Source: a candidate division FCPU426 bacterium
Lineage (GTDB): Bacteria > Oederibacteriota > JAAXVQ01 > JAUVAV01
Length of the DNA: 64,000 nt
Direction: 5' to 3'
NCBI GenBank assembly: GCA_040756875.1
Contig: JBFLYH010000001.1
Span: 416,001-480,000, forward strand
A model generated the notes under the pieces. That model made no database searches, was not told the origin of the DNA, and saw nothing but the letters and a program-made list of their open reading frames with translations. This document shows, piece after piece, positions 26,127 to 62,350 of this stretch; the first letter of the stretch is position 1, and every line of letters begins with the position of its first letter. The position numbers were made by a program, and so were the translations under genes.

Positions 26127-27845
26127 TTGAGAAAGCTACTTCTGTTTTTCGCGGCTTGTTCATTGTCGATCTCAACCGCACATGCGGCTTCGGTCGAAGC
26201 GTTCACGTTTGATCCCAGCACGACCATAACGGCGGTTGCGGGTTTTTCTTTCCTGACGAACTTGGTGAAAACTACGGATGGCGGCCAGGATGGCACGTAC
26301 AACGGAACTGCCAACGTGGTTGCGGTCCATCAAACCCGCGGCCCAGTGACCATCACGCCTTCCCAGGTCACTTTCACGGGCGGCCGGATCAACGGTACGA
26401 GTTTTCAAATTGATATCGCCGGCCCTATCGATGTGACGTTGACGGATACTGTCACTCCCGCGCTCACCAGCTGGGCCGGCCATGTGGATGTCGGCCCCGG
26501 GGCGGTGCATCACTTTACCACGCTGTATCAGCAAGGGCCTGTAATGCGCATAACCCAACCTGGCACCTCCACACCCGGATACACCCCCTACTGGGTTACC
26601 ATTACTGCTGGCGCGCCCTGCGCGGTTTCGATCGTGGCGTTGGATATGCTGAATAACACCATTCCCATTGGCGCCACGATCACGGTGTCTGATAACTATT
26701 CAGTGCCGATCTGGTCAGATGTACAAAGCCAAATTCTTGGCATTGCCAGTTACAATTGGACGCCCAATCCGCCAACCACGGCGCCTAATTTCACTTTCTT
26801 AATCAATCCAGCCTCGCCGTATGAAAATCCTTCATTGTATCCGATTCTCGGCAACGGCGTTTCACTGGTCATTCCCACCACCTATTACATCTGGATTTCC
26901 GCACCAGCGACGGTTTATGCCGGCGTTCCTTTCTCGGTCCAATTTTCCGCCTCGGACAGCAATCTCTATAACAGCCCTCAATCCAGCGCCAGCAGTTACG
27001 TATTGCAAGTCAACGCCCTGTTGTTGGATGCGAGCCCGGGGAACGGCACGCTGACGCCGCAGACCGTGCAGATCGGCACGGATGGCACCAAGACGCAGAA
27101 TTTTACCTACACCCGGGCCGAAACGATTTACCTGGACGTGTCGAAGATCTCGCCCACGGGCAGCGGCACGCGCACCATCGAGCGCGCCTTCTCGCCGCAG
27201 ATCCAGGTGATGGCCAGTTCGCCGACGCAGATTTCGGCTTCGGCCGCGCCGACGGCCATCCAGGCCGGCAAAACCTCGGTCATTTCCGCGACCGTGCTGG
27301 ACGCCTACCAGAACCCCGTGCCCAATGTCCCGGTCAGCTTCACCAAGACCCAGGGCTCGGCTGAATCGGTCATTTCGCCGGCCACGGCCCAGACCAATGA
27401 CAGCGGCGTGGCGCAGGCAACGCTGACCGGCGGCATCACGAACGAGACCGTGGCCATTGAATGCCGCGCCAACACCCTGGTGGCAAGCACGAGCGTCCGG
27501 GTGTCCGTGGCCTCGCCGGACGGCGATGCCATGATCAATTATCCGAATCCCTTCGACCCCAACGAGACGAAAACTTCCATCAATTATTTCCTCAATTACG
27601 AATCGGAAATGGAAATCCGAATCTATGACGCCTTTGGCCGCGTGGTGCTGGCCAAGGATCTGAAACCCGGCCAGGGCAGTGGCGATTTCGCCAATGCCAC
27701 ACTGTCCGGAGGCGCCAATTTCCTCTGGGACGGCCGGAACGGGGAAGGCCGTGTGGTCGCCAACGGCATTTACCTGGTCAAAGTCAAAGCCAAGAGCCGA
27801 AACGGCACACAAGAATTTAAACGACGCGTGGGGGTGATTAAATGA
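26127..27845 (+). CDS. Secreted Ig-like (Big_1) protein with FlgD/T9SS-type C-terminal domain
   Basis: TTG start after GAGGTG gives signal peptide MRKLLLFF..AHA (GTG 26118 is an alternative); ATVLDAYQNPVPNVPVSF..TNDSGVA Big_1 motif; NYPNPFDP..IRIYD..G..WDGRN..G..VANGIY. Confidence 0.85.
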   Translation: MRKLLLFFAACSLSISTAHAASVEAFTFDPSTTITAVAGFSFLTNLVKTTDGGQDGTYNGTANVVAVHQTRGPVTITPSQVTFTGGRINGTSFQIDIAGPIDVTLTDTVTPALTSWAGHVDVGPGAVHHFTTLYQQGPVMRITQPGTSTPGYTPYWVTITAGAPCAVSIVALDMLNNTIPIGATITVSDNYSVPIWSDVQSQILGIASYNWTPNPPTTAPNFTFLINPASPYENPSLYPILGNGVSLVIPTTYYIWISAPATVYAGVPFSVQFSASDSNLYNSPQSSASSYVLQVNALLLDASPGNGTLTPQTVQIGTDGTKTQNFTYTRAETIYLDVSKISPTGSGTRTIERAFSPQIQVMASSPTQISASAAPTAIQAGKTSVISATVLDAYQNPVPNVPVSFTKTQGSAESVISPATAQTNDSGVAQATLTGGITNETVAIECRANTLVASTSVRVSVASPDGDAMINYPNPFDPNETKTSINYFLNYESEMEIRIYDAFGRVVLAKDLKPGQGSGDFANATLSGGANFLWDGRNGEGRVVANGIYLVKVKAKSRNGTQEFKRRVGVIK

Positions 27846-29110
27846 AGCGCCTGATCCGCACCCTGGGAACGATGCTGCTGTCCGCGGCCCTGGCTTTTTC
27901 GGCTGAGGGTGTGTGCCTGGCCGGCTCGAACGGAGACGCCGGCCAAGCCGGAGCGTTTCTCACTTATGGAGCCGGCGCGCGCGCCATCGGCATGGGCCGT
28001 GCCTTTGTCGGCTTGGCCGACGACGCCACGGCTGTTTATTGGAATCCGGGCGGCCTTTCCGGCTTGCGGCAAAATCAAGTGTTGCTGCAGCACGCTTTAT
28101 TGGTGGATGGCAGCACGTACCAGTATCTCGGATACGGGCATATCCTGCCTTATATCGGATCAGTTGGATTCGGATTGCTCATGTTGAACCAGGGCGATGC
28201 CGAAGGCCGCACGATCGACAACCAGGTGACCTCGAGTTTCAACAACCGTCAATTGGGTGTGTTGCTCGGGTTTGGCTCGGATCTTACCCCCCAGCTGGCC
28301 GTGGGCGGCAGCCTTAAATTAATCAACCAGACTTTCTACAATCTGAGCGGAACGGGTTTTGGCCTGGACCTGGGGCTGATGTACCGGGTTTTACCTATGC
28401 TTAATCTCGGCCTGGCGTTCCAGAATTTGCTGGCGCCGTCGATCACCCTGAAATCCGCGGCTGAAACCTATCCAATGAACATGGCTTTCGGCGTGGGCGC
28501 CCTGTTGTTTGAGGAACGCCTGAAGCTTGATTTGGATCTTGCTAAAAATATGGAACAGGATTCTCTCAAACCCCGGTTCGGCTTCGAGCTGGCGCCGGTG
28601 CCCGACCTGCGCGATTTATGCGTGCGCGCCGGCATTGATGACACTGAAATAGGCGTGGGCGCGGGATATGCATATCAGGGTTTTCAATTGGATTATGCCC
28701 TGGGCTTCCAGACAGTCGAAATGATGCATAAAGTGACCCTGTCTTACGGTTTCGGCGGTTTCGTGCTGGAAGTGAATCCGGAACCGGCCTCCTTTTCGCC
28801 CGTGGGCATCAATAAAGTCTCCGTCCTTAGAATCAAGTCCCATACCAAATTCCAAATTCGCGTCTGGACCATGGAAATCACCAACGAAGCCGGCGCCTTG
28901 GTGCGGAAGTACACCGGCGAAGGCATGCCGCCTTCCCATATCGTTTGGGATGGGCTGCAGGATAACCTCACTCCCATGCCAGATGGGAGATACCAGGTGG
29001 TTCTGACCGTGGAAGACGCCTCCGGTGCAACCAGAAAATCCTCGGAAGCCTGGGTAAGCATCCAGAGTGTCTTGCCTTTGGGTGTATCGCCGGTAGAAGT
29101 GGTCGAGTAA
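27842..29110 (+). CDS. PorV/PorQ-family (UPF0164) beta-barrel with C-terminal FlgD-like Ig domain
   Basis: FL..G.GARA.GMG.AF..LADDATA.YWNP.GL; DLG..Y; DYA...H.V.L; tail FSPVG..W....WDG..PDG.Y; ATGA-coupled to the preceding gene. Confidence 0.88.
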   Translation: MKRLIRTLGTMLLSAALAFSAEGVCLAGSNGDAGQAGAFLTYGAGARAIGMGRAFVGLADDATAVYWNPGGLSGLRQNQVLLQHALLVDGSTYQYLGYGHILPYIGSVGFGLLMLNQGDAEGRTIDNQVTSSFNNRQLGVLLGFGSDLTPQLAVGGSLKLINQTFYNLSGTGFGLDLGLMYRVLPMLNLGLAFQNLLAPSITLKSAAETYPMNMAFGVGALLFEERLKLDLDLAKNMEQDSLKPRFGFELAPVPDLRDLCVRAGIDDTEIGVGAGYAYQGFQLDYALGFQTVEMMHKVTLSYGFGGFVLEVNPEPASFSPVGINKVSVLRIKSHTKFQIRVWTMEITNEAGALVRKYTGEGMPPSHIVWDGLQDNLTPMPDGRYQVVLTVEDASGATRKSSEAWVSIQSVLPLGVSPVEVVE

Positions 29111-29248
29111 ACCCTGGCAACGGTAGCTCGCTAGCGCGTGGGTCCGGAAAGGTCTCTGGACAACCGAATCCTATAAACGCCTTTTTGACATTTCTTAAAA
29201 CCTAGATTCCTGCCAGGGGATTGAAAAACAATAATTTTTCAGTACTCC

Positions 29249-29371: not shown

Positions 29372-29935
29372 GTGGCCCAGCAGGCACAGCCTCAGCAGCC
29401 GACATTTAAACGCAAGCAGATTTACATCAATATGGATCTGCAGTTTAAATACTCCCTGATTCTTATTTTCACCATGTTCGTAGAGATGGTGATCGTTGGA
29501 TTGGCCCTGCTGTATGTTTTTTCCCAGCCTAAGCCCGACATTCCGGGGGCCAATATCTATTTCATCTATAAAGTGGTTTTGGCCATCATTATTTTCCTGA
29601 CCTTGTGCAACATTACCGTGGGTGTTTGCCTTTCCCATAAAGTGGCCGGCCCCTTGTTCCGTTTTGTCATGGTTTCGCGTGAATTAGCCAACGGGAATTT
29701 AAAAATCCAGGCCAATCTGCGCAAAGGCGACGAGCTTCGCGAACTGGAGGCCGCATTCAATGATATGACCGAGCGGCTGCGCTCTGTCATTCGGGATGAC
29801 CGCAAACGGCTTGAGGATATCAAGGACGCAGTCAAGGTAATCGAGGAGAATGCCCCGAAATCTGGAAAAATTCAGGAAGAAATACAATTTATCCGGGAGG
29901 CCGTTGACAAGGTAACCAGATATTTTACGATTTAG
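29372..29935 (+). CDS. Two-TM HAMP-domain protein without output domain
   Basis: RKQIYI...Q.KY, two hydrophobic helices, SHKVAGPLFR, LRKGDEL..L..AFN.M, short coiled coil. Confidence 0.8.
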   Translation: MAQQAQPQQPTFKRKQIYINMDLQFKYSLILIFTMFVEMVIVGLALLYVFSQPKPDIPGANIYFIYKVVLAIIIFLTLCNITVGVCLSHKVAGPLFRFVMVSRELANGNLKIQANLRKGDELRELEAAFNDMTERLRSVIRDDRKRLEDIKDAVKVIEENAPKSGKIQEEIQFIREAVDKVTRYFTI

Positions 29936-29980
29936 TATCACCGGTTGCAGTCGCGGTTGTGTATGCTGATGAGGGGTCAT

Positions 29981-32900
29981 GTGAAAAAAATAGCCTCGGC
30001 AGGCTGGCTATTCAGCCTGCCGTTTCTCTTTTGCGGATCTCCCGCCCAAAGTGCAACCTTTTCCGAGGATTTCGACACCACGGTATACGAGGATTCGGCC
30101 AACACCACGGCTGACTGGAACACCGGCGCCAGCCGGGTGCAATTACTACCCACCTATTCCTTCACACAGCCAACCGGCATCGCCAACTGGGGCGGGCAGA
30201 TCAATACCGTTGCTACGAACGGCGCCAATTTCCTCATCGGCGGCGACGGCGCCAAACTCAACCTGTACGACGGCTCCTCCAGCACCGCGCTTTCCAACAC
30301 CCTGGTGGGATACGCCGGCAACAATATCCGCGCCATTGCCTGGGGTGTCAATTCACAATGGTTTATCGCGGGTAACAACGCCAAGCTCAACGCCTATAAC
30401 GGGAATTTTGCGGTGGACCTGTCCAACAGCCTGACCGGCTGGGGCACCAACAACATCTTAACAATAGGTTACGGCGGCGGTAGCACGGAAAATTTCTGGC
30501 TTTTTGGCGGCGGCAGCTCCAATGTCGGCAAGCTGACTAAATATAACGGCACGAGTTTTTCCAATTTGGAAAGCACTTCCGGCTTTTTTGGCAATACCTA
30601 TACGGTGTACAGTTTGGCTTTCAATGGCAGCGGCTGGCTGATCGGCGGTAACAGCGGGCGGTTGTCCTATTACAGCGGAGGCGCGTTTACCGACCTGTCA
30701 TTCCGCCTTTCGGGCTCCGGAGCGGGCGAAGGCAATTTTGGGAATAACATTGTCTACAGCATCGGTTGGGACAGTGTCAACAGCCGCTGGCTGATCGGCG
30801 GCTCGGGCGGCAAGCTGGCTGCCTACAACGGCACCTCCTTCTCTGATCTATCAAGTTCGGTCTCCACCTTTAATAATATCTATTCCCTCAGTCACAATGG
30901 AAGTTACTGGCTGCTGGTGGGCAATGACACCAGCGGCGCCACGGAATGCTATTCGTACGACAATTCCACATTTCGCGATCTGTCGGCGAACTTGATCGGT
31001 ATGGGCAGCAGCCTTCCTTTGTATACCGTGGCCGGCCATTCCACGCTGTGGTTGCTGGGCGGGGCCCAAGCCAAGCTCAACGATCATACCGGCGGCGCAA
31101 CATCCACGGTTTTCAACGATCGTTCCAACCGGCTCGCGGATTTCGGCACCAAGCATATCCTGGCTTGTGCCTACAACAGCACATTCGGCTACTGGCTGGT
31201 GGGCGGTGCGGACAAACGCCTGAACCGCTACAACGGCGTGTTCTTTACCGATATCTCCAGCGACCTGGCTGGCTACAGTTCGACTGACGACGTGTTGTCC
31301 ATCGATTGCAACGGCACTTATTGGCTGATTGGTGGAACCGGAGGCCGGCTCACCCGTTATAACGGTACGGGTACGGATTTGTCATCTTCGCTTGGATTCG
31401 GAAGCAATGCGGTCTATGCCATCAAATGGGATGCCGCGGACAGCTTGTGGATGATCGGCGGGGAAGGGCCGAGTTTGAAAACATACAATGGCGCCAGTTT
31501 TTCCGCCAGTCTAACGGGTTCCATGGTGAATTTTACGGGCACGGTCCGGGGCATCAGCTATTCGGGCGGCTGGTGGATCATCGGCGGCACGAATGCCTCG
31601 ATCAACCGCTACAATGGGTCGAGTTTCAGCGATCTCTCTTCGGGCTGGGGAACCGGCGACATTTACACTATCGGAACAAATGACAGCTACTTCCTGATCG
31701 GCGGCGCTTCGGCCAAGGTGAGGCAGTTGTATCCCGTCGTATGGAGTTTCGTCGGTGTTTCGCTCACGAGTTTCACCGGGGCCGACGTGCGCAGCCTGGC
31801 CTACAGTCCGGCCTTTGGATATTGGATGATCGGCGGGACTTCGGCCCGGTTGAACCGTTATAACGGCACTTCCACTTCCGATGAATCCGGCAATCTGATT
31901 GAATTCGGCAATTCGAACATCAACACCCTGGGCTGGGGCAGCGATCATTGGCTGTTCGGCGGGGACGACGCGCGCATCAACAAATACGGTCCTACCTATA
32001 CCACTCCCGGCCAGGCGCAGTCCCTGACCACGGTTACGACCGGCAGCTGGTTCATGCGCGCCACACTGACCGCGGTCCAAACACTCAACGGGCAAGCCAT
32101 TGTTTATTATCTCTCGGCCAACGGCGGAACGAATTGGGAAGGCCCGGTGACTTTGGGTTCGGCTTGGACGTTTGCGAATACCGGGGTTGACCTGCGCTGG
32201 CGCGCGGTTTTGTCCACCTCGGACAGCGCGCTTTCCCCTTTCTTGGATTCCCTGGCCATTGATTATGTAGTGCCCACGCCCACGTCCACCGCTACGCCGA
32301 CATTCACAGCCACGCCAACTTATACGGCAACGCCGACCATGACCCGGACTGTCACGCCCACGCCCACGTTTACCGCCACGCCGACTTCCACCGGCACGCC
32401 GACCATGACCCGGACCATCACGCCCACAGCCACCCATACTCCCACGGATACCGCCAGCCCGACCATGACCTCGACTTCCACGCCGGAGCAGAGCCCGACC
32501 TTCACGGTCACCCGGACTTTTACTTCCACCTCCACCCCGACGTTTACGGCCACGCCAACCTTCACAGCGACCCCGACGTTTACCACCACGCCGACTTTCA
32601 CGGCGACCCCGACGTTTACGGCCACCCCGACGTTTACCGCCACGCCGACGGCGACGGCAACGCGGACCTCGACTTCGACTGCCACGGCGACGCGGACGCA
32701 CTCGCCGACGTTCACGGCCACTCCGACGTTTACGGATACCCCAACGTTTACCGCCACGCCGACGGCGACGGCAACGCGGACTTCAACTTCGACCGCCACG
32801 CCCACGCGGACGCATTCGCCGACGTTCACGGCCACGCCCACCTATACGGATACTCCGACGTTTACGGCCACGCCAACGTTCACGGATACATGGACAGCCA

Positions 32901-34213
32901 CACCGACCTTCACCGCTACGCCAACTTTCACGGCGACTTCGACTGCCACGTTTACCCGGACGCATTCGCCGACGTTCACCGCCACCCCGACTTTCACGGC
33001 GACGCCGACGTTTACCGCCACGCGGACAGCAACTTCGACGCGGACATCGACCCCGACCGCCACGGCCACGCGGACGCATTCGCCGACGTTTACGGCCACG
33101 CCGACCTTCACGGCCACCGCGACCGCTACGGCCACGCGGACGCACTCGCCGACGTTTACAGCCACGCCGACCTTCACGGCCACTGCGACCGCTACGGCGA
33201 CGCAGACGCATTCGCCGACGTTTACGGCCACGCCGACGTTCACCGCCACCCCGACTTTCACAGTGACGCGGACCTTCACGTCGACTTTCACGGATACGCC
33301 GACGTTTACGGCCACGCCGACGTTCACCCCGACCTTCACCGCGACCCCGACGTTAACGGCTACGCCGACATTTACTGCATCCGCCACTTTCACCCTGACA
33401 TTTACAGCCACGCCGACCTTCACGGCCACGCCGACTTATACTGTGACCCGTACTTCCACGGCCACTGCCACGCATACGCCAACCTTTACAGTGACGCCGA
33501 CTTTCACCGCCTCAATAACAGTCACGCCCACTGGGACACATACGCCGACCTTTACGGCCACGCCGACCTTCACCGCCTCAATCACCGTTACGCCCACGGG
33601 GACAAACACCCCGACCTTCACGATCACTCCTACCCGCACTGCCAGTGCGACCTTTACCGCAACTGCCACTGCCACCCTGACGGCAACAGCCTCAGCTTCT
33701 CCGTCGGCGACTCCCAGCCGGACTGCAAGTCTGACACCTTCCCTTACGACCACGCAGACTCCTACCGCGACTTCCACTATCACCCTGACTTCCAGTCCGA
33801 CGCGGACCGTCACAGCCACGCAAACTCCGCTGGCTTCAGCGACAATAACCCCAACCCTTACCGCCACGCCGACCAATCCGCCGGTTTTGCCTTCCGCCAC
33901 TCCGACCGCGACCTCTACGCCGACCGCGACCTCCACCCCCATGATCGAAATACGGGTTTATCCCAACCCGTTCAAGCCCGACACGGCGGTAGGCGGTACG
34001 CTGAAATTTATCGGATTACAGGCAACGGATGTATTACGGATATATACCGTAACAGCGGAAAAAGTTTATGAGACCAGAGGGCATGCCGGCCGCTTTGAAT
34101 GGAATGGTAAAAACCGGGAAGGTTCGGCGGTTGCCAGCGGTGTTTATATATGGGTTCTGGAAAGGTCAAACGGCGAAAAATATATGGGAAAAATAATCAT
34201 TATTTCCAACTGA
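29981..34213 (+). CDS. Large secreted protein: 14-repeat beta-propeller region, ~555-aa Thr/Pro stalk, T9SS-type C-terminal domain (paralog 1)
   Basis: GTG after GAGGGG; signal peptide; 14 W-L-I-G-G..L..YNG repeats; TATPTF tract; [29 protein letters not shown]. Confidence 0.88.
32273..33940 (+). repeat. Coding low-complexity tandem repeat (TATPTF and TRTHSPTF units)
   Basis: Imperfect 18-bp periodicity (acggccacgccgacgttt-like) with synonymous variation. Confidence 0.9.
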
Positions 34214-34450
34214 TTAAATCTTATTGCAATTTTTTTGGAACCTATTTGTCAATCATTCGCTCCAAAGTATCATGAATATCTTGTAAAGCTCGAGATCAAT
34301 AATGACGATGCTTTTTTCAGATTATGGATTGACTGTTAATTTTTTTTGGCATAAAATTTTACATGAATAGGTGCTCTAAAACTTAACAAATATATTTTAC
34401 ATATTTTTACAAATGCTATTTTAAAAAAAATTTTAAGAGGGACAGGAACC

Positions 34451-36058: not shown

Positions 36059-36128
36059 AGCTGCTGGGCAAGGAACGGAATACCTGAACCCATTGTAATA
36101 GGCGAGTCGTGCGGTAGGGAGAGATCTC

Positions 36129-41558: not shown

Positions 41559-41668
41559 CAGAATGCCCTCGAGTTTCGGATAGTATAGACGAAACTTAAA
41601 ATATGGGGTATTCTGTATAAATGTGAATCTGTTTGGAAACACGCCCCTGCGGGGCAAAGGCTGGCCGT

Positions 41669-47600: not shown

Positions 47601-48091
47601 CGTTTACCCCCACGCTGACGCCGACCCAGGTTGATTCGCCAACCTCAACATCCACACCCACCATTACGGAAACCAGCACGGCCTCTGCCACCTGGACCGT
47701 CAGTCCGACCATCACCTTGACCGCTACCTGGCAGGCATCAGCCACGCCTACGTCCGTGATTGGTCCCTGGACCCCGACCAGCACGCCCACGCCTACACTT
47801 ACACCCACTGCTTTCGCCGGGCCGGAAGAACCTCTGATTTATCCCAATCCGTTCAATCCAGGGGCAGCCTTTGGCAATGCCCTGAAATTTGATCACTGCC
47901 CGCAGGGAACCAAGATCCGTATATTCACTGTTACCGGCGAATTGGTCAGGAAATTCGAAAGCACAGGCAACAGGGTTCTCTGGGACGGCAAAAATACTCA
48001 ATCCGAGGATGTAGTTAAAGGCATATATATTTACATTATTGATCTGCCGCAGGGAGACAGAAGAGTAGGAAAAATATTCCTGGTTCGCTAA
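41669..48091 (+). CDS. Large secreted protein with the same architecture as paralog 2 and longer stalks (paralog 3)
   Basis: ATG 41669 gives signal peptide MKRFNR..LQA; colinear with 36129-41558; [15 protein letters not shown]. Confidence 0.88.
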
Positions 48092-48239: not shown

Positions 48240-48267
48240 TTGACATATAAGGCTAATCCTTTATAAT
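48240..48267 (+). promoter_or_regulatory. Consensus sigma70 promoter
   Basis: TTGACA-N16-TATAAT, both hexamers exact, ~60 bp upstream of ATG 48328. Confidence 0.75.
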
Positions 48268-48327
48268 GATAGATTGTTAATTCCACATTGAAGCAGAATG
48301 TCAAATAATTTGAAAGGAATGAGACCT

Positions 48328-55404: not shown

Positions 55405-55603
55405 GCCGCCGGCTCCTTCGGATATTTGCCCTGCAGCAGCGAAACGTATGGAATTTGACCGCAGGCTGCTGGTTTGGCCGGCCGGGGTTGAAGTCCGTAT
55501 GGGGTCTCTCCCACCGACTTGGCCGAAAAATCAAGCTGAATGATAGAATCGGCAGTTGGCTGGCCGGGGGCTTCATCATTCTACTTTAAAAGGGGAACGC
55601 CTT

Positions 55604-58600
55604 ATGCACAGTCGGATGCGTGTGGGCATCATGGCCGCAGGACTTGTCTGCTTCGTTCTGATTCTGACCGCGGGAGTAAGAGCGGAGGATCCTGAAAAAG
55701 TAAAACTGGCCAAGGAAGCCTGGGATCAAGCCTTTGATTCGACCGCGCTGGATATCGAAGACACCAATCTTTCCCAGACGTGGGCGAATTACGCCAAGCA
55801 GTTTGCCGACCAGCCCAGCGCGCCCCGTGCGGCTTATATGGTGGCTGAAGTTCAATTTCAGCAGCGCTTTTACGACAAGGCAGCTTCGGCGTACCAGGAA
55901 TTTCTTAAGAAATACCCACGGGAAACCTTTTCTGATTCGGCCGCGTATCGCTATGCGGAATGCGCATACAATCTGAAGGATTACAAGGAAGCGCTGGTGC
56001 GATGGGATCAGTTGTTGGATAAATATCCCGCTACTTTTCTGCGCGCCGAAGCTTTGTACGGTCAAATCCTCTGCCACATCGTACGCCGTAAATGGCGCGA
56101 TGCGTCGGAAACCATCGAACGCCTGACCAGTCGCTATCCTTATTACCGAAAAGTGCAGAAAATCAAACTGCCGTTGGGATTGGTTTATTTCCAGAACCAT
56201 CAATATGCCCAGGCTATGCAGTATTTCATGAGCCTGGAAGGCGATATGGCGACTTACTACATCGGGCGTTGCCAGGAAAACCTCGGACAGTTTCTGCCGG
56301 CGGCAGCCAATTATAAAAAGATCATCGAGCAATTTCCAAATTCGATTTATCTTCTGGATGCCGCCTACAGCAAGGCGGACGCCTATTACAAAGGACAGAA
56401 TTACACGGTGGCGGTCAGGGAGTTTCAGGATTTTTTAAAAAAATATCCTGATTCGAAGTTCCGCCCCTATGCGCTCTATAAAATGGCGGTCAGTCAGATG
56501 CGCCAGGAAAATTACGCTGATGCGCTTAAGAATTTGGAAAGCTTGCTGGCCCAGGCCGAACGGTCGCAGCTGGCGGCTAATGCGCTCTATCTGAAAGGGG
56601 AGTGCCTGTCGAAACTCTCCAAGCCCGAACAGGCGGTTGCCACCTATAATCAGGTTTTCACAGAATATCCCAACACCTATGTTTCGGGAAGCGCCAAGTT
56701 TAAGGCCGGTTGGGTGATGCTGCGGAGCGGGGAATCCGCGCAAGCCATGCGGACGTTCAAGGAATTTTTAACCACCTACCCAATCCACGAGAACGTGCAA
56801 TTAGCCACCTATTTGCTCGGGAACAGTTATTTCAAGCAGGAACTGTATGCGCAGGCCATCCCGATCTATCAAGATATTTTAATGAAATACAAGTATTCGG
56901 ACGTCTCTGACGCGGCCTTGGCGGCGCTGCAGATGGCTTATTATATTCCGAAGCAATATGAGCAGTTGATCTCCACCACGCATTACATCCTCAAAGTCCT
57001 GTCCGCCAATTTCCCGCCGTCCAAGAGCACGTGGCGCTCGCTGTCGTATTTTTATTTGGGCGAAGCTTATTACCATATGGATATGTTTCCCCAGGCTGCG
57101 GGACAATATAAAAAGATCGTCGAAAATTTTTCCGATTCCCCGATTTTAAATTGGGCCAAGCTTGGACTGGCCTACAGCTTGTTTGAAACCGGCGAATTCA
57201 AGGATTCCCGGCGGGCCGCCCAGGATCTGGCGTCGGCTTCCGATGTCCCGGAAAAACTGCGGAACTATGCTTCGCTGATGGTGGCGCACAACCTCTTCAA
57301 TGAAAAGAAATATGAGGATGCGATCGTAAAGTATGAAACCTTTGCCAAGACCAATCCGACGATGCCTGAAGCCGGGGATGCGTATTTCTATGCGGGGCAG
57401 GCGTATTACCAATTGGAATATTATGCCAATGCCATCGAAGCTTGGCAGCGGGTCGTGAAAAATTTTCCGAAAAGTGAAAAAGCGCCGGAAGCAGCCTACC
57501 GCATGGCGGATACCTTTTTCAAAGCGCAGCGCTATGACGAAGCCGTCAGGGGCTTCGAATTGCTTTCCCAGTGGCCGGAAGAAAGCAACCCGTACCGCAA
57601 GGAAATGCAGTTGCGCATCGCCCAGTGCTACTACAACGCGAAGATGGACGATAAAGCCGTGCAAGCGTATACCAAATTCATCAATGAATATCCGGATGAT
57701 CCCAAAGTCAAGGACGCCATGGAGGGAATTCAGCTCAGTTATTACCGCAAAGGCGCCACGGCGGACGCGGTCCCGCAACTTATGGAATTCGTATCCAAGT
57801 TCCCGAACAGCCGCTTGGCGGTGGACGCGTTGTATCGCGTAGGGGAGATTTATTACCAGGAAAAGAAGATGGATCAGACCATTGCGGCCTTCCAACAGCT
57901 GATTGCTGATTATCCGGAAAGCTCTTTATTGCCCAATGCCCAATATTATATCGCCATATGCAATGAAGAACTCGGCAACCGCGATCAGGCCATCCGGAGT
58001 TACGTGGCTTTTATCCGCAATTTCCCCTCGCACGAATTGGTGGTGGATGTCCGCTTCCGTCTGGGTTCGGCATATTTCGCCAAAGAGGATTTTGAGACGG
58101 CTATACAGATTTTCCAGACCATTTTGGATTTGCATCCCAAATCCGATTATGCAGCCAATGCCTTGTATAATATTGCCTTATGCTACAAACGCCTGAAGAA
58201 ATGGCAGTCTGCGATTGAACGGTATACCGAATTTTATCAACGGTTTCCTCAGGACCCCAAAGCCAAAGATTGTTTGATGCAGATTGCTACGACCTACCGC
58301 GAAGAGAAACGCTATCCCTCCGCCATTAAAATATATGAAGAGATGATAGCGAAGCCCGAATTTGCGCAAGAAAAGCCGGAAATTATGTACACGATCGCGG
58401 ATGCTTATATGGAAATGGAAAATAAAGAAGAAGCCGCCAAGGCTTTTGACCGCATGCGCGCCTTGAAACCCAAAGACGATGTTTACCGCTTGACGGCATT
58501 GGCAAAACTGGGTAGTCTGTATGAAGAATTAAACCAATGGGGTAAAGCATACGTCGTTTACGAAGATCTTTCCACTTCCGGCGGCAAGCCCGAATGGACA

Positions 58601-58735
58601 CAAGCCGCAAAAAGCCGCATGTCGATCATCAAATTGGAACATCAAGCGGAAGTGGATGCTGAATTAGGAAGCGCCAAGAGTCCGGCGGCGCAGGGCTCGG
58701 AGAAAAAACCGGAGCCCAAGAAAAAGGCGAAGTAA
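55604..58735 (+). CDS. Large periplasmic tetratricopeptide-repeat protein (CpoB/BamD-like repeats)
   Basis: Signal peptide; many A.Y.LG..Y......A...Y..I...YP.S repeats; AGGGG RBS. Confidence 0.9.
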   Translation: MHSRMRVGIMAAGLVCFVLILTAGVRAEDPEKVKLAKEAWDQAFDSTALDIEDTNLSQTWANYAKQFADQPSAPRAAYMVAEVQFQQRFYDKAASAYQEFLKKYPRETFSDSAAYRYAECAYNLKDYKEALVRWDQLLDKYPATFLRAEALYGQILCHIVRRKWRDASETIERLTSRYPYYRKVQKIKLPLGLVYFQNHQYAQAMQYFMSLEGDMATYYIGRCQENLGQFLPAAANYKKIIEQFPNSIYLLDAAYSKADAYYKGQNYTVAVREFQDFLKKYPDSKFRPYALYKMAVSQMRQENYADALKNLESLLAQAERSQLAANALYLKGECLSKLSKPEQAVATYNQVFTEYPNTYVSGSAKFKAGWVMLRSGESAQAMRTFKEFLTTYPIHENVQLATYLLGNSYFKQELYAQAIPIYQDILMKYKYSDVSDAALAALQMAYYIPKQYEQLISTTHYILKVLSANFPPSKSTWRSLSYFYLGEAYYHMDMFPQAAGQYKKIVENFSDSPILNWAKLGLAYSLFETGEFKDSRRAAQDLASASDVPEKLRNYASLMVAHNLFNEKKYEDAIVKYETFAKTNPTMPEAGDAYFYAGQAYYQLEYYANAIEAWQRVVKNFPKSEKAPEAAYRMADTFFKAQRYDEAVRGFELLSQWPEESNPYRKEMQLRIAQCYYNAKMDDKAVQAYTKFINEYPDDPKVKDAMEGIQLSYYRKGATADAVPQLMEFVSKFPNSRLAVDALYRVGEIYYQEKKMDQTIAAFQQLIADYPESSLLPNAQYYIAICNEELGNRDQAIRSYVAFIRNFPSHELVVDVRFRLGSAYFAKEDFETAIQIFQTILDLHPKSDYAANALYNIALCYKRLKKWQSAIERYTEFYQRFPQDPKAKDCLMQIATTYREEKRYPSAIKIYEEMIAKPEFAQEKPEIMYTIADAYMEMENKEEAAKAFDRMRALKPKDDVYRLTALAKLGSLYEELNQWGKAYVVYEDLSTSGGKPEWTQAAKSRMSIIKLEHQAEVDAELGSAKSPAAQGSEKKPEPKKKAK

Positions 58736-58777
58736 TATCCCGCCTATCCAAGGCCGGGAGGAAAAAGGGAGGGAAAT

Positions 58778-59428
58778 ATGGAGCTCGGAAATCTGGATTT
58801 TGTTGAAATCTTTCGCAGCAGCTTTACTTTAATGATCTTATTGGTGTGCTCGATTTTGGCTGTGGCCTTTATGATCGAACGCTTCCTTTTTTACCGCCGG
58901 GCCAAAGTGGATTCGACGCGCTTTTTGTCGCGGATAAAGATGTCGATGGAGAACGAAAACTATCAGGAGGCCATAGCGGCCTGTGAACGCGACCGCAGCC
59001 CTGTGGCCGCAGTCTTGCGCGTAGGCCTCTTGAATCGCGAGCTTCCCTATGAACAGCTGGACGAATTGATGGCCGCCACTCGCGAAGAAGAACGCGTGAA
59101 GTTGGAACGCTATTTGGGCGTTTTAGGAACATTGGGCAATTCGTCGCCCTTCATCGGACTGTTTGGAACGGTCGTGGGGATCATCAAAGCGTTTCATGAC
59201 TTGGCAGCGTCCGGTTCGGGCGGTCCCACGGTGGTGGCCGCCGGTATTGCCGAAGCACTGGTTGCCACTGCGGCCGGATTGGCAGTCGCCATTCCCTGCG
59301 TCATGGTGTTCAATTATTTCATGCGTAAAGTCAAGAACATGTCCGTGGAGATGGAAGCGGTCTCCAAACGTTTTCTCGTTATATTAACCGGAAAAGAAGC
59401 CGAGAGCACGTCCTCGCGCAGGCGATAG
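58778..59428 (+). CDS. exbB: MotA/TolQ/ExbB proton-channel protein
   Basis: SPFIGLFGTV.GI..AF, GIAEAL.ATA.GL.VAIP; GGAGG RBS. Confidence 0.93.
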   Translation: MELGNLDFVEIFRSSFTLMILLVCSILAVAFMIERFLFYRRAKVDSTRFLSRIKMSMENENYQEAIAACERDRSPVAAVLRVGLLNRELPYEQLDELMAATREEERVKLERYLGVLGTLGNSSPFIGLFGTVVGIIKAFHDLAASGSGGPTVVAAGIAEALVATAAGLAVAIPCVMVFNYFMRKVKNMSVEMEAVSKRFLVILTGKEAESTSSRRR

Positions 59429-59468
59429 CCGGAGCAGCGGAACCATTACGGCAACGGGGGTTTGAACC

Positions 59469-59915
59469 ATGGGAATGGCAGCAGGCGCAGAAGATGCCAT
59501 CACCGACATCAATGTAACACCATTGGTTGACGTATGTCTGGTTTTGGTGATTATTTTCATGGTTACCGCCCCCTTGGCCATGCAGGCGGGCATCATCGTG
59601 GCAAGCAGCAAAGTGGATGCGGCTGAAGGCCAGGTATCGCAAAACGAATCCGTGGCCGTACGCTTGACGGCGGATAAAATGTATTTAAACGACCGCCTGG
59701 TCACTTTGGAAACCCTGCCGCCGCTGATAACCGCCAAGCTGAAAGTTAATAAGAAGAAAGTGGTGACAATTACCGCCGACGAAGATGTCAAACACGGCAT
59801 TATTGTGGCGGTGTTGGACATTTCCAAGCAAAGCGGTGCGGAAGGATTGTCCATCATGCGCAAGCCGGTGATGGGGCAGTTAGATAGTAAAAAGAAAAAA
59901 AGTAGGAAACGTTAG
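59469..59915 (+). CDS. exbD: ExbD/TolR family protein 1
   Basis: INVTPLVDV.LVL.IIFMVTAP with the conserved TM Asp; I.AD..V.HG....LD. Confidence 0.92.
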   Translation: MGMAAGAEDAITDINVTPLVDVCLVLVIIFMVTAPLAMQAGIIVASSKVDAAEGQVSQNESVAVRLTADKMYLNDRLVTLETLPPLITAKLKVNKKKVVTITADEDVKHGIIVAVLDISKQSGAEGLSIMRKPVMGQLDSKKKKSRKR

Positions 59916-59927
59916 GAGGGATTGGCA

Positions 59928-60335
59928 ATGGGTGGCGGCGCTGGTGCATCTGACGAACCCATCACAGCGATCAATGTCACGCCGTTGGTGGATGTTTGTC
60001 TTGTCTTGGTGATTATTTTTATGGTTACGGCTCCTCTGTTTAGCCAGCCGGTCATGAAAGTGGAATTGCCTAAAGCGGTTACGGATGAAGGCGAATCCAC
60101 CGAAAACATCACCATTACCATAGATCCGGACGAACGGATAGCCGTGAATTCGAAGGAAGTCACCTTCGACGAACTGAAGCCGGAATTGAAGATGAAACTT
60201 CAGGAAAGTGCCGAAAAATACGTCATTATTCGCGCGGACAATCTGACCAATCACGGCATTGTATTGAAAGCCCTGGATTTGGCGAAGGAACTGGGCGCGA
60301 AAAAAATGGTATTCGCGACCGAACATAAAAAATAA
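59928..60335 (+). CDS. exbD: ExbD/TolR family protein 2
   Basis: INVTPLVDV.LVL.IIFMVTAP, V.LPKA, IRAD...HG....LD; AGGAGG upstream (TTG 59922 is an alternative start). Confidence 0.92.
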   Translation: MGGGAGASDEPITAINVTPLVDVCLVLVIIFMVTAPLFSQPVMKVELPKAVTDEGESTENITITIDPDERIAVNSKEVTFDELKPELKMKLQESAEKYVIIRADNLTNHGIVLKALDLAKELGAKKMVFATEHKK

Positions 60336-60359
60336 CGTTTGCCGACAGAGGCACCGGGT

Positions 60360-61397
60360 ATGAGCAGAATCAGAGTCATTATAGATGAAGAGGAACGGTT
60401 TGCCGCGGATTATGACATTCCCGGTTTGACCAAGGGCAGTTTTGCATCGCTGCTTATGCATGCTTCAATATTTTTCCTGGTTTTTATGGTGTCACATCAA
60501 CAGAAAAAAGCTGAAGTTTTGCTTACCGAAATCACGCTTGTGGATCAAATTATACCGATTCCCGAGGAAGAGGCGCCTCCGCCCATGCCGGTGGCCCCGC
60601 CGGAACAAAAAAATGTCTGGGATTTTCTGAAGCAAGCTATTCCGTTGAAAGCCAAACCCGAGGAACTGGCTTCCCAGCTGCCAATCGACCTGCCCAAGAA
60701 AGAGGCTGCGCCGGCCATGGCACAAATGCCGGATGCGCTGAAATTGGGCAGTAAAAAAGATCTCGATAAGCCTGCGATCGGCGATAAACCGCTGGATTTG
60801 GTGGGGCGTAAAGCCGTCGAAGCTCCTGCGGGCATGAATGTCAATCCTCTGCAAATGAACCAGCGCCGCGATTCGCTTGCCAGCGCGGCGAATTTACCAA
60901 CAGGCGTCAGTTTGGGAAAAAAGAGCAGCTTTTTGCCCGGGCAGCAGATGCCCGTTGTGGATACGCAGCAATTCGCGCGCCGTGCCAATTTGCAGGCCCG
61001 GGGCGGGTCGCTGGCGGACATGCCCGCTTTGCAAAAGCCGGCGGAAAAGAAGAAAATGGAGTTTGACACTTCGCAGTTGAATATTTCCAGGGATCAGAAC
61101 ACCTTCAAGATTTTCGGCCCTTTGAAGGACCGGCAGATTCTGGAAAAATATCTGCCTCGTTATCCCCGCTGGGCCGAGGAGCAGGGCCTGGAAGGGTCGG
61201 TTAGCCTGCACTTTTTCGTATTTCCCAACGGCATGGTTAAAAATAACATTTTTGTCGAACAGAGTTCTGGTTATTCCGAAATGGACGGTTTGGCCATGAA
61301 AGCCCTGCAGGCGTTCAAATTCGCTCCACTGCCCGCTAGCGAGCGGCAGGAAGAACAAGAAGGTGTTATCGTATTCTATTTCAGGTTGTCGAGGTGA
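60360..61397 (+). CDS. tonB: TonB family energy transducer
   Basis: TM helix with S..MH, Pro-rich spacer, P.YP..A...G.EG.V..F.V..NG, SSG...D..A..A...KF.P TonB_C domain. Confidence 0.88.
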   Translation: MSRIRVIIDEEERFAADYDIPGLTKGSFASLLMHASIFFLVFMVSHQQKKAEVLLTEITLVDQIIPIPEEEAPPPMPVAPPEQKNVWDFLKQAIPLKAKPEELASQLPIDLPKKEAAPAMAQMPDALKLGSKKDLDKPAIGDKPLDLVGRKAVEAPAGMNVNPLQMNQRRDSLASAANLPTGVSLGKKSSFLPGQQMPVVDTQQFARRANLQARGGSLADMPALQKPAEKKKMEFDTSQLNISRDQNTFKIFGPLKDRQILEKYLPRYPRWAEEQGLEGSVSLHFFVFPNGMVKNNIFVEQSSGYSEMDGLAMKALQAFKFAPLPASERQEEQEGVIVFYFRLSR

Positions 61398-61404
61398 ACT
61401 GATT

Positions 61405-62343
61405 ATGATCAGGCGCGTCACCCTCAGTATCATCGCTTTTTTTTGCCTGGCCGTGTATCCCGCTTTTCAGCTTTTAGCCGCGGAGGATCAGAAATCGGAT
61501 CAATTGGCCGGCGCCCCGGAAAAGAAAACTGAAGAGAAAACCGACAGCAGCCAGGAAGTGGTCATTAAAGGCGTTCAGCGCCTGAAAGTAAAAGTCGTAA
61601 AGCCCGAACCGGATATTTCCTTTGACGTGGACGAGATTGCGGTACCCTATGTAGTGACTGAAGACAGCGTGCTGGATATTTCACCCACCTCCATGACGGA
61701 CCCGCAAATTTCGGTGCCGTCAACCTTGAACAGCGCACAGGCGGCTTCGCCTTTTATACAGCTGTTCAAACGGCCGCCGATTTTAACACTCAACCCCCGA
61801 TACAACAGTCAAGTCAACATCAGCAAATGGTCGCTGCGGATAACCGACGGATTCGGCAATGTGTTCAAGAATTTTACGGGCGAAGGCTCCCTCCCCAAAC
61901 AGATCATTTGGGACGGGACGGACAAAAATAAGCAAATGCTTGATATTGGCACTTCGTATTCCTATATTTTTTCCATTGTCGACGTCGCCTCCAACCCCAC
62001 GAGCCAGATGGGCAAACCGGTGATTTTGGAATCCCTTTTGTACGAGGAAAACGGCGAATTGATCGCGCAGGTTACAAGCGAGGTTATGTTTGAAAAAGGC
62101 GAGCGCAAGACCACGATCAGCCAGAAAGGCCAGCTGTATTTGCGGGAAGTGGCGGATCTGATTACTTCGCGGCAAAATTTCCCAGTGCAATTGGAAGCGT
62201 ACGCCAAGGATCTTGACGATGCCAGTGCCAAGGGGGAAATCATCCAGGATTACCTGGTTGAGCGTTTGACGATACCCAAGGAAAATATTAAACTGACTCC
62301 GCGCAAATCGCGGATCGCGAAAATACTTTTTAAGATTAAGTAA
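61405..62343 (+). CDS. Exported protein with FlgD-like Ig domain and degenerate OmpA-like domain
   Basis: Signal peptide; KWSL.I.D..G..FK.F.G.G.LP..I.WDG.D domain like the PorV tails; F.KG...I....YL.EVA..I...V..EAY; GAGGTG RBS. Confidence 0.75.
   Translation: MIRRVTLSIIAFFCLAVYPAFQLLAAEDQKSDQLAGAPEKKTEEKTDSSQEVVIKGVQRLKVKVVKPEPDISFDVDEIAVPYVVTEDSVLDISPTSMTDPQISVPSTLNSAQAASPFIQLFKRPPILTLNPRYNSQVNISKWSLRITDGFGNVFKNFTGEGSLPKQIIWDGTDKNKQMLDIGTSYSYIFSIVDVASNPTSQMGKPVILESLLYEENGELIAQVTSEVMFEKGERKTTISQKGQLYLREVADLITSRQNFPVQLEAYAKDLDDASAKGEIIQDYLVERLTIPKENIKLTPRKSRIAKILFKIK
62266..62294 (+). promoter_or_regulatory. Putative sigma70 promoter for the rib operon, inside the upstream CDS
   Basis: TTGACG-N17-TAAACT about 55 bp before the riboswitch. 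Confidence 0.45.
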
Positions 62344-62350
62344 AAATCTG

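What the first reader, a model, noticed from the sequence alone, without database searches (positions are those of the whole stretch)
26127..62343. Candidate non-canonical T9SS-like surface-display system coupled to an ExbB-ExbD-ExbD-TonB motor
Seen: 15 co-oriented genes. Five are Sec-signal proteins ending in a YPNPF.P...W.G.N..G..V..G.Y tail, three are PorV/PorQ-like barrels interleaved with them, one is a HAMP protein, and the cluster ends with TPR-exbB-exbD-exbD-tonB-FlgD/OmpA. No TonB-dependent receptor, tolB or pal is in the window. Established: in Bacteroidota such tails are T9SS sorting signals bound by PorV, and export through SprA is driven by the PorL/M (GldL/M) motor with PorK/N rings. 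Inference: here cargo and PorV-like shuttles sit with a TolQR/ExbBD-type motor that may replace PorLM. That would be a minimal or ancestral T9SS-like pathway in a probably non-Bacteroidota diderm. The translocon is not in this window.
Basis: partly seen in the sequence, partly recalled or inferred. Interest (0 to 1): 0.88.

Follow-up and report, generated by a model that had tools for sequence, protein, structure and literature searches.

The report
Surface protein, barrel and TonB-motor operon
An uncultured groundwater bacterium related to Firestonebacteria keeps one giant surface protein and its own outer-membrane barrel in a single operon with a proton-driven TonB-type motor, in a genome that has the type 9 secretion pore but not its usual motor, so this may be an undescribed way of powering events at the outer membrane.

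Summary
In detail: 15 co-oriented genes, five with YPNPF...W.G.N..G tails, three barrels that pass NCBI's PorV/PorQ model, one HAMP protein, then TPR-ExbB-ExbD-ExbD-TonB and a FlgD-Ig/OmpA-like protein.

They are not one system. Only the last eight genes (48298-62343) are conserved together. This block lies intact in 17 of 17 loci with the Firestonebacteria-type layout. A consensus promoter precedes it and a strong terminator follows it.

The genome has a SprA translocon homologue, a C25 peptidase with a tail, 42 PorV-like barrels and 65 tailed ORFs. GldK, L, M and N were not found, though L, M and N had no positive control. A canonical TolB N-domain and Pal were not found either.

Two further ExbB systems exist, so this one is a specialised paralogue.

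Of 61 genomes of the phylum, 32 have SprA-like and PorV-like genes but no such block. It is therefore not the universal replacement for PorLM.

Best reading (0.42): a dedicated TonB-type force transducer acting on one cargo-barrel pair. No binding or expression was shown.

Unchecked notes of this scan report the same operon layout on other DNA (e1-984843, e1-1456054).

The parts
48240..48267 (+). sigma-70-like promoter (TTGACA-16-TATAAT, 12 of 12) 31 bases before H
   Evidence: a consensus match only
48298..54117 (+). H: 1939-aa secreted protein with repeated Ig-like modules and a T9SS-like C-terminal tail; first gene of the conserved block
   Evidence: The body has homologues directly upstream of the PorV-like gene in 15 loci
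54154..55404 (+). I: PorV/PorQ-family outer-membrane barrel with a C-terminal FlgD-type Ig domain
   Evidence: NF033709 101 vs 90, FlgD_ig 35.6 vs 27. Best PDB profile hit is PorV 6h3i_F at 4.5e-7. Best Foldseek hit is PorV 8gl6_F
55556..58735 (+). J: 1059-aa TPR protein with a signal peptide and YbgF/CpoB-type repeats
   Evidence: TIGR02795 377.4 bits in 11 stretches; PorW/SprE 137.3 vs 250
58778..59428 (+). K: ExbB/TolQ-type proton channel subunit
   Evidence: PF01618 113.5; tolQ 140.7 vs 221; exbB 93.7 vs 206.2
59469..59915 (+). L: ExbD/TolR-type subunit 1
   Evidence: PF02472 78.8; the membrane segment holds an Asp
59922..60335 (+). M: ExbD/TolR-type subunit 2
   Evidence: PF02472 104.7; the membrane segment holds an Asp
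60339..61397 (+). N: TonB-type transducer with a membrane helix carrying an invariant His41, a Pro-rich spacer and a TonB_C domain
   Evidence: PF03544 46 vs 24.6; alignment of 22 sequences
61363..62343 (+). O: signal peptide, a conserved EVV(I/V)KG strand in a disordered N-terminal part, a FlgD-like Ig domain and an OmpA/MotB-like C-terminal domain
   Evidence: alignment of 25 sequences; model pLDDT 76.4; Foldseek 3khn_A 2.1e-5 and FlgD 7eh9_A 2.1e-3
62503..62531 (+). intrinsic-terminator-like hairpin (13-pair stem, then a T run) 160 bases after O
26118..29110 (+). A and B: Big_1 protein with tail plus PorV-like barrel with FlgD_ig, overlapping by 4 bases; a separate cargo-barrel pair outside the conserved block
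   Evidence: not found upstream of H in 7 loci of other families
29372..29935 (+). C: small membrane HAMP protein. Homologues lie inside the motor cluster in Elusimicrobia-type loci and in L044, but not next to the block in the other Firestonebacteria-type loci
29945..48091 (+). D, E, F, G: three paralogous tailed proteins with repeat N-terminal parts and Pro/Thr-rich linkers, plus one PorV-like barrel carrying an OmpA domain (E); specific to this lineage
   Evidence: the D and G bodies have 0 homologues in the 100 related loci (L037-L136) searched

Best explanation
Genes H to O (48298-62343) form one operon for a specialised proton-driven TonB-type machine tied to a single cargo-barrel pair.

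Shown by calls:
- K, L and M have the make-up of an ExbB/ExbD-type stator with two different ExbD subunits.
- N has the make-up of a TonB/TolA-type transducer.
- H carries a T9SS-like tail.
- I is a PorV-family barrel with an Ig domain added at its C-terminus.
- O has the same kind of Ig domain plus an OmpA/MotB-like domain.
- The eight genes travel together across seven families of the phylum.
- The genome also holds a SprA homologue and about 40 further cargo-barrel pairs, with no detectable PorKLMN.

Inferred:
- H is exported through the SprA-like pore and held by its cognate barrel I.
- The motor pulls through N on a periplasmic handle. That handle is the EVV(I/V)KG strand of O, or the Ig domains shared by O and I.
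- The pull either extracts the I-H complex from the pore or moves or tensions H on the cell surface.
- J acts as a scaffold.
For: Operon signals. A promoter-like site lies before H and a terminator-like hairpin lies after O. Gaps inside the block run from -35 to 152 bases.

Conserved order. PorV-like, TPR, ExbB, ExbD, ExbD, TonB and O lie in this order in 7 of 7 close loci and in 10 of 10 loci from families f7, f10, f12, f17 and f18, where TonB identity falls to 34-41%. Homologues of the H body lie upstream in 15 of these 17; the other 2 run off their contig.

Split clusters. In families f4 and f14 the cluster is split, yet a tail-PorV pair stays beside motor genes in L127, L130 and L044.

The cargo-barrel rule. 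27 of 42 PorV-like ORFs in the genome touch a tailed ORF on the same strand, and many overlap by 4 bases.

A paralogue, not the only motor. Two other ExbB systems exist, one next to a Plug-domain receptor.

Protein features. I resembles PorV by profile and by fold. The FlgD-Ig domains of I and O hit each other. His41 of N is invariant in 22 of 22 sequences.

Mechanistic precedent. In Flavobacterium the energy-requiring step of T9SS transport is the release of the carrier-substrate complex from the translocon (PMC10994853; abstract and discussion passages read).
Against: No interaction, expression or phenotype is known.

In 30 Elusimicrobia-type loci the same core (TPR, ExbB, ExbD, ExbD, TonB, O) has no PorV-like gene within the fetched flanks. 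In 15 of the 30 a FlgD-Ig-repeat/OmpA protein sits there instead. The core therefore works without a PorV partner nearby.

L128 and L131 (family f4) also lack the pair.

Tailed and PorV-like genes fill 7.3% of the genome, so some adjacency is expected by chance.

The 17 loci are related to one another and are not independent.

The tails of D, F and H are below the curated cut-offs.

The I model is of moderate confidence (pLDDT 70).
Confidence: 0.42

Rival explanations
1. The block is the general energy source of a PorKLMN-less T9SS, and it powers export of all roughly 65 tailed proteins through the SprA-like pore in place of PorLM.
For: A SprA homologue passes TIGR04189 (224.2 vs 200). GldL, M, K and N gave 0 matches in the genome, and GldM gave 0 of 61 in the phylum. 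The only motor cluster in the genome linked to a PorV-like gene is this one. J gives a sub-threshold match to PorW/SprE (137.3 vs 250). T9SS needs energy to release the carrier (PMC10994853).
Against: 32 of 61 phylum genomes have SprA-like and PorV-family genes but no full-length O. These include all 10 genomes of family f9. In many of them N matched only through its TonB_C domain. The block never lies next to the SprA gene in the genomes where both were placed. The GldL, GldM and GldN models had no positive control, so divergent homologues may have been missed. The TPR match to PorW may reflect repeats alone.
Confidence: 0.2
2. The core J-O is the Tol-Pal-like envelope-maintenance system of this lineage. 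It would tether the outer membrane to peptidoglycan and help at cell division. The H-I pair would be a stable neighbour with no functional tie.
For: K, L and M score higher on the TolQ and TolR models than on ExbB and ExbD. J is built of YbgF/CpoB-type repeats. O has an OmpA-like fold. The genome has no TolB N-domain (0 matches, with controls ringing) and no Pal above cut-off (82.9 vs 125.35), so some other system must do this job. The core exists without PorV in Elusimicrobia-type loci, where it has two OmpA-domain proteins. Pro-rich TolA proteins that look like TonB are reported for Elusimicrobia (PMC12204202, passages read).
Against: A second TPR-ExbB-ExbD-TonB system (C1:649493-656287) has the layout found in families that lack O (L133-L136). 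It is therefore the better candidate for a universal housekeeping role. O is absent from 33 of 61 genomes, which is odd for an essential envelope system. H and I sit inside the same promoter-to-terminator span, and they stay with the motor even where the cluster is split. The TolQ and TolR scores are below cut-off.
Confidence: 0.25
3. An ordinary TonB-ExbB-ExbD system that energises the seven TonB-dependent receptors of the genome.
For: N passes TonB_C and tonB_Cterm. The genome has 7 Plug-domain receptors.
Against: No receptor lies in the window or in any of the 17 conserved loci. Another ExbB-ExbD-ExbD set lies directly beside a Plug receptor (C1:225134-229488), and a compact ExbB-ExbD-TonB set also exists.
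Confidence: 0.06

Closest known systems
Bacteroidota type 9 secretion system (SprA/Sov, PorV, PorLM, PorKN, PorU)
   Same: It shares a SprA homologue above the curated cut-off, many PorV/PorQ-family barrels, C-terminal Ig-like tails starting YPNP, and a C25 peptidase that itself carries a tail.
   Different: The organism is outside Bacteroidota. GldK, L, M and N matched nothing. The PorP/SprF family gave weak hits only. The PorU model scored 84.3 vs 420. There are 42 barrels instead of a few, and many carry periplasmic FlgD-Ig or OmpA domains.
T9SS cargo with a cognate barrel encoded next to it (type B CTD proteins with PorP/SprF-like proteins, PMC9143113; abstract seen in the listing)
   Same: The barrel gene directly follows its cargo gene, and the rule recurs across the genome (27 of 42).
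   Different: The barrels here are of the PorV/PorQ family, not PorP/SprF. The tails resemble type A/FlgD_ig rather than type B. One pair lies in an operon with a motor.
TonB-ExbB-ExbD energy transduction system
   Same: The domain set matches, the transducer helix has its invariant His, both ExbD membrane segments hold an Asp, and there is a Pro-rich spacer.
   Different: There is no TonB-dependent receptor in the operon. It has two different ExbD genes, a 1059-aa TPR protein, an Ig/OmpA-like protein and a PorV-like barrel.
Tol-Pal with CpoB/YbgF
   Same: It has TolQ/TolR-like stator proteins, CpoB-type TPR repeats and an OmpA-like periplasmic domain.
   Different: The TolB N-domain and Pal were not found in the genome. 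O lacks a lipoprotein signal by eye (not tested by a call). A surface protein and a barrel lie in the operon.
TPR, tolQ-like, two tolR-like genes and an inner-membrane-tethered vWA transducer in PVC bacteria and Bacteroidetes (PMC12204202, passages read)
   Same: The front half has the same layout: a TPR gene, one TolQ-like gene, a pair of unlike TolR-like genes, then a transducer with the conserved His.
   Different: The transducer here ends in TonB_C, not in a vWA fold, and it is followed by O and preceded by H and I.
Myxococcus Agl-Glt gliding machinery (recalled, not checked in a paper here)
   Same: One TolQ-like and two TolR-like subunits, TonB-like proteins, TPR proteins, outer-membrane barrels and a surface adhesin work together.
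   Different: No orthology was shown: the GltC model scored 22.7 vs 450. The Myxococcota loci found with K show only ExbB-ExbD.

Membership tests
T9SS (Bacteroidota type) | SprA/Sov translocon | tested here: met
   A 2111-aa ORF at G000:C1:863629-869964 scores 224.2 on TIGR04189 against a cut-off of 200. It lies outside the window.
T9SS (Bacteroidota type) | PorV/PorQ-family carrier or anchor barrel | tested here: met
   B, E and I score 101.9, 131.9 and 101 vs 90 on NF033709. None reaches the PorV, PorQ or PorV2 equivalog cut-offs. The best PDB hit by profile and by fold is PorV.
T9SS (Bacteroidota type) | type A or type B C-terminal sorting domain on cargo | tested here: inconclusive
   1 of 5 tails passes TIGR04183 (A) and 1 of 5 passes CHU_C (G). 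The other three match only the CTD part of the PorZ or PorU models.
T9SS (Bacteroidota type) | PorL/GldL-PorM/GldM motor | tested here: not met
   TIGR03513 and TIGR03517 gave 0 matches in a genome rated 100% complete. GldM gave 0 of 61 in the phylum. Nothing rang in the control genomes, so there is no positive control.
T9SS (Bacteroidota type) | PorK/GldK-PorN/GldN ring | tested here: not met
   TIGR03525 and TIGR03523 gave 0 matches. The GldK model did ring in 3 control genomes through related domains.
T9SS (Bacteroidota type) | PorU sortase | tested here: inconclusive
   A 1188-aa C25 peptidase with a tail scores 167.1 on PF01364 but only 84.3 vs 420 on NF033707.
TonB-ExbB-ExbD | ExbB, ExbD and TonB_C domains, with the His in the transducer helix | tested here: met
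   His41 is invariant in 22 of 22 sequences. The equivalog cut-offs for exbB and ExbD were not reached.
TonB-ExbB-ExbD | works on TonB-dependent receptors | not testable with these tools
   No receptor lies in the operon or in the 17 conserved loci. The genome has 7 elsewhere.
Tol-Pal | TolB with its N-terminal domain | tested here: not met
   PF04052 gave 0 matches, while the controls rang in E. coli and Caulobacter. Only propeller parts matched TIGR02800, with a best score of 136.4 in the genome search and 219.2 for one whole protein, against a cut-off of 343.
Tol-Pal | Pal lipoprotein | tested here: not met
   The best TIGR02802 score is 82.9 vs 125.35, at C1:809358, far from any motor.
Tol-Pal | TolQ and TolR equivalogs | tested here: not met
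   tolQ scored 140.7 vs 221; tolR scored 69.5 and 88.4 vs 127.3.

The most novel reading that the evidence does not exclude
Firestonebacteria and their relatives run a type 9-like secretion pathway with no PorKLMN. In it a TonB-type transducer, driven by an ExbB stator with two unlike ExbD subunits, pulls on Ig-domain handles that hang from PorV-like carrier barrels. The pull drags each carrier-cargo complex out of the SprA pore. If so, TonB-style linear pulling and PorLM-style rotation would be two interchangeable answers to the same energy-requiring step.
Probability: 0.2. Interest if true: 0.9.

Novelty: new variant of a known kind. Interest (0 to 1): 0.7.

Why it matters
T9SS is described in print as a Bacteroidota or FCB-group system with an obligatory PorLM/PorKN energy chain. 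That is what the reviews and abstracts listed say.

Here a SprA homologue, dozens of PorV-family barrels and tailed cargo occur in a different lineage, and no trace of that energy chain was detected. One cargo-barrel pair is locked into an operon with a TonB-type motor.

If the link is functional, it gives a second and simpler model for how proton-motive force reaches the T9SS carrier step. It would also widen the known uses of TonB/TolA-type transducers beyond nutrient import and envelope tethering.

If the link is not functional, the genome still shows that SprA/PorV-type export exists without PorKLMN. That leaves its energy source an open and testable question.

Tried and rejected
Complex prediction. 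TonB_C (residues 250-352 of N) was folded with I (residues 25-416), both as alignments. The job gave no answer: score 0.00, controls not run. It counts neither way.

Expression. No RNA holder was listed for 53000-62600, and read laying was not used.

HAMP gene C as part of the machine. It lies in the cluster in Elusimicrobia-type loci and in L044. It was not found within 10 kb of the block, nor in the further 18 kb upstream in 7 loci of other families. Dropped as a core part.

A-G as part of the system. The D and G bodies have 0 homologues in the related loci, and the A body matches only a few unrelated positions.

PDB sequence search with H. One weak hit to an uncharacterised protein.

Positive control for the GldL, GldM and GldN models.

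TonB-box comparison. The N-terminal strands of the 7 receptors resemble the O strand only loosely. Kept as an inference.

Earlier notes of the scan looked up by sequence with I: nothing.

Literature. 'T9SS' with 'Firestonebacteria' gave 0 papers. 'type IX secretion' with 'Elusimicrobia' gave 4 papers, none describing such a system, judging by their titles, their abstracts and the passages read in PMC12204202. The searches listed no title or abstract describing a T9SS with an ExbBD motor. Supplements of PMC12204202, which may list the Elusimicrobia tol-pal genes, could not be seen.

Full report
WHAT IS THERE

The region holds 15 genes on the + strand.

A (26118-27845), D (29945-34213), F (36129-41558), G (41633-48091) and H (48298-54117) start with signal-like segments. 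They end in a roughly 90-residue tail that begins YPNPF and contains (W)(D/N)G(K/R)N..G..V..G.Y. Curated models recognise the tails only in part:
- A passes TIGR04183 (25.7 vs 23) and FlgD_ig (34.9 vs 27).
- G passes CHU_C (30 vs 27).
- D, F and H stay below all Pfam cut-offs. They do match the C-terminal domain inside the PorZ or PorU models, at E 5.7e-15, 1.2e-13 and 3.5e-8.

B (27842-29110), E (34451-36058) and I (54154-55404) pass NCBI's PorV/PorQ family model (101.9, 131.9 and 101 vs 90). The FadL model reaches only 18.5 vs 29.7, and for B alone. B and I end in a FlgD-type Ig domain. E ends in an OmpA domain.

The remaining genes are:
- C: a small HAMP protein.
- J: a 1059-aa TPR protein.
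- K: ExbB-type.
- L and M: ExbD-type.
- N: a TonB_C protein.
- O: no family hit, but its model (pLDDT 76.4; above 85 from residue 140 on) shows an Ig domain followed by an OmpA/MotB-like domain (Foldseek 3khn_A 2.1e-5; FlgD 7eh9_A 2.1e-3).

THE GENOME AROUND IT

The window lies in a 3.22-Mb assembly of 7 contigs rated 100% complete. With K as query, the nearest labelled records are MAGs called Candidatus Firestonebacteria and Candidatus Goldiibacteriota (82-95% identity), then Elusimicrobia (50-60%). The organism is not a Bacteroidota.

T9SS parts in the genome:
- SprA: a 2111-aa ORF 390 kb from the window passes the SprA/Sov model (224.2 vs 200).
- PorU-like: a 1188-aa C25 peptidase with its own tail exists (PF01364 167.1), but it reaches only 84.3 vs 420 on the PorU model.
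- GldL, GldM, GldK and GldN gave no match.
- The PorP/SprF family gave only hits under 24 bits.

The GldK model rang in three control genomes through related domains. The GldL, GldM and GldN models rang nowhere, so their silence has no positive control.

CARGO-BARREL PAIRS ARE A RULE OF THE WHOLE GENOME

HMMs built from the three barrels and the five tails find 42 PorV-like ORFs and 65 ORFs with the tail at the very C-terminus.
- 27 of the 42 barrels touch a tailed ORF on the same strand.
- In 24 of those the barrel follows the cargo, often with a 4-base overlap.
- Together these genes fill 7.3% of the genome.
- Many barrels carry periplasmic OmpA or Ig domains.

Two earlier notes of this scan on the same genome (e1-1381444, e1-1381445) describe such pairs elsewhere. 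My count agrees with them.

WHAT IS CONSERVED TOGETHER

I annotated 80 loci found with K, 20 loci fetched around matches to N in the phylum sample, and 8 further upstream stretches.

The order PorV-like, TPR, ExbB, ExbD, ExbD, TonB, O is intact in 7 of 7 close loci (L037-L043). It is also intact in 10 of 10 loci from families f7, f10, f12, f17 and f18 (L117-L126), where N is only 34-41% identical. A homologue of the body of H, not just its tail, lies directly upstream in 15 of these 17. The other two run off their contig.

Nothing resembling A-G lies upstream of H in 7 loci of other families. Only the same-genus genome has another tailed gene there. The D and G bodies have no homologue in any of these loci.

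In families f4 and f14 the cluster is rearranged:
- L127 reads tail, PorV, ExbD, ExbD, TonB, O.
- L130 reads ExbD, tail, PorV, ExbD, TonB, O.
- L044, from the same genome as L130, reads HAMP, a small tail protein, PorV, TPR, ExbB.
- L128 and L131 have no pair.

In 30 Elusimicrobia-type loci (L045-L074) the core TPR, ExbB, ExbD, ExbD, TonB, O recurs, often with a HAMP gene. None has a PorV-like gene within the fetched flanks. In 15 of them a protein of about 1000 aa, made of FlgD_ig/Big repeats and ending in OmpA, sits between TPR and ExbB.

The remaining 42 loci, from other phyla, show only ExbB-ExbD.

TRANSCRIPTION SIGNALS

A 12-of-12 sigma-70-like site ends 31 bases before H. The strongest terminator-like hairpin of the scanned 15.5 kb lies 160 bases after O. 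Gaps inside H-O run from an overlap of 35 bases to 152 bases. These are consensus matches, but they frame exactly the conserved block.

THIS MOTOR IS A PARALOGUE

The genome has three ExbB systems:
1. The one in the window.
2. ExbB-ExbD-ExbD directly before a receptor with a CarboxypepD_reg and a Plug domain (C1:225134-229488).
3. A 1020-aa TPR protein, a 584-aa unknown, ExbB, ExbD and a 232-aa TonB (C1:649493-656287).

The third has the layout seen in families that lack O (L133-L136). Seven Plug receptors exist, none in the window.

No TolB N-domain was found, with controls ringing. The best Pal score is 82.9 vs 125.35, far from any motor. A lipoprotein with a TolB-type propeller and an OmpA domain lies at C1:1391384-1393027.

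PHYLETIC PATTERN

The sample is 61 genomes of the phylum.
- SprA-like matches: 58 of 61.
- PorV-family matches above cut-off: 61 of 61.
- GldM: 0 of 61.
- Full-length O (288 bits or more): 28 of 61, plus one copy cut by contig ends.

So 32 genomes, among them all 10 of family f9, have SprA-like and PorV-like genes but no such block. The three genomes without a SprA match do have N and O, but they are 89-99% complete.

Elusimicrobia-labelled genomes reached through loci have PorV-family genes in 10 of 10. SprA-like ORFs appear in the 4 searched, as they do in the one Firestonebacteria-labelled genome searched with them; one of the four matches is weak.

PROTEIN FEATURES THAT BEAR ON MECHANISM

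- N has an invariant His in its membrane helix (22 of 22 sequences), a Pro-rich spacer, a conserved K-N-x-W/F-D-F-L-K motif and a TonB_C domain.
- L and M both hold an Asp in the membrane segment. Its role as the proton-binding residue is recalled knowledge.
- The profile of I and its orthologues finds PorV of Flavobacterium as its best solved relative (6h3i_F, 4.5e-7). No FadL appears among the 12 hits.
- The model of I (pLDDT 70) matches PorV best (8gl6_F, TM 0.59 on the target), with FadL close behind.
- The Ig domains of I and O find each other in sequence searches.
- O carries a conserved strand, EVV(I/V)KG, with a nearly invariant Gly, in an otherwise disordered N-terminal part. It loosely recalls the TonB boxes of the genome's own receptors. 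That it is a TonB box is my inference.

READING

The eight genes most likely form one machine. Cargo H would be exported through the SprA-like pore and held by barrel I. K, L and M would form a proton-driven stator. N would be the transducer. O and the Ig domain of I would be its periplasmic handles. J would be a scaffold.

The pull could release the I-H complex from the pore. Work on Flavobacterium identifies exactly that as the energy-requiring step of T9SS (PMC10994853; abstract and discussion passages read). Alternatively the pull could move or tension the adhesin on the surface.

I put this at 0.42. The wider claim that the block replaces PorLM for all cargo gets 0.20, because half of the sampled genomes have the pore and the barrels without the block. 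A Tol-Pal-like envelope role, with H-I as a bystander, gets 0.25. That reading fits the Elusimicrobia-type core and the lack of TolB and Pal. It fits poorly with the patchy distribution, the second TPR-motor system and the shared promoter-to-terminator span. An ordinary receptor-feeding TonB system gets 0.06.

LITERATURE

- No paper holds both 'T9SS' and 'Firestonebacteria'.
- Four hold 'type IX secretion' and 'Elusimicrobia'. None describes such a system, judging by titles, abstracts and the passages I read.
[quoted passage not shown] It reports Pro-rich TolA in Elusimicrobia, and it views PorE as a CpoB-TolB-Pal fusion.
- The reviews listed call T9SS specific to Bacteroidota or the FCB group (abstracts seen in the listings).

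EARLIER NOTES OF THIS SCAN

A look-up by words returned three unchecked notes on other genomes:
- the same eight-gene layout in Krumholzibacteriota (e1-984843);
- a nine-gene version in an Elusimicrobia genome (e1-1456054);
- a case judged to be two juxtaposed modules (e1-1234728).

I could not test them. They are leads, not support.

CAVEATS

- All counts across relatives involve related genomes and are not independent.
- My ORF calls take the first start codon after a stop.
- The labels 'tail', 'PorV' and 'O' in related loci come from HMMs and single-sequence searches built on this window.
- Absence within a fetched flank is not absence from a genome.
- No binding, transcript or phenotype was observed.

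Noticed in passing
window 36129-48091 (F, G): F and G share a conserved central domain of about 650 aa (starting [13 protein letters not shown]) set between two long Pro/Thr-rich linkers. No family hit was reported for it. D, F and G also share an N-terminal part of about 750 aa built of repeats around YNG(T/S)xF.
   Followed up: partly
window 31500-34000, 38900-41700, 43900-47500: The Pro/Thr-rich linkers give strong negative GC skew (down to -0.30) and long spurious ORFs in other frames and on the - strand (for example 43889-45928, 679 aa).
   Followed up: no
window 25101-26024 (-): A divergently oriented 307-aa ORF has a signal-like segment and a C-terminus ending in aromatic residues, which looks like an outer-membrane barrel. 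It was not scanned against any library.
   Followed up: no
G000:C1:649493-656287: A paralogous system: a 1020-aa TPR protein, a 584-aa protein with no family, ExbB, ExbD and a 232-aa TonB. Families of the phylum that lack O show the same layout.
   Followed up: partly
G000:C1:225134-229488: ExbB-ExbD-ExbD lies directly before a receptor with a CarboxypepD_reg domain and a weak Plug domain. No TonB gene was seen beside it.
   Followed up: partly
G000:C1:1007254-1030323 (-): A 7689-aa ORF holds at least 11 internal copies of the tail-like Ig domain.
   Followed up: no
G000:C1:1391384-1393027: A lipoprotein-like 547-aa ORF combines a TolB-type propeller with an OmpA domain, which recalls part of PorE. 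It lies next to a PorV-like gene and a tailed gene.
   Followed up: no
phylum genomes G012, G019, G025, G031, G049, G053: Close relatives carry second and third TonB-O-like modules (O-like matches of 100-180 bits). The window's genome has only one.
   Followed up: no
Elusimicrobia-labelled genomes G062-G071: These genomes hold 13-39 PorV-family genes each, and SprA-like ORFs of about 1900 aa appear in two of the four that were searched for SprA. So the pore-plus-barrel set extends beyond the window's own lineage.
   Followed up: partly
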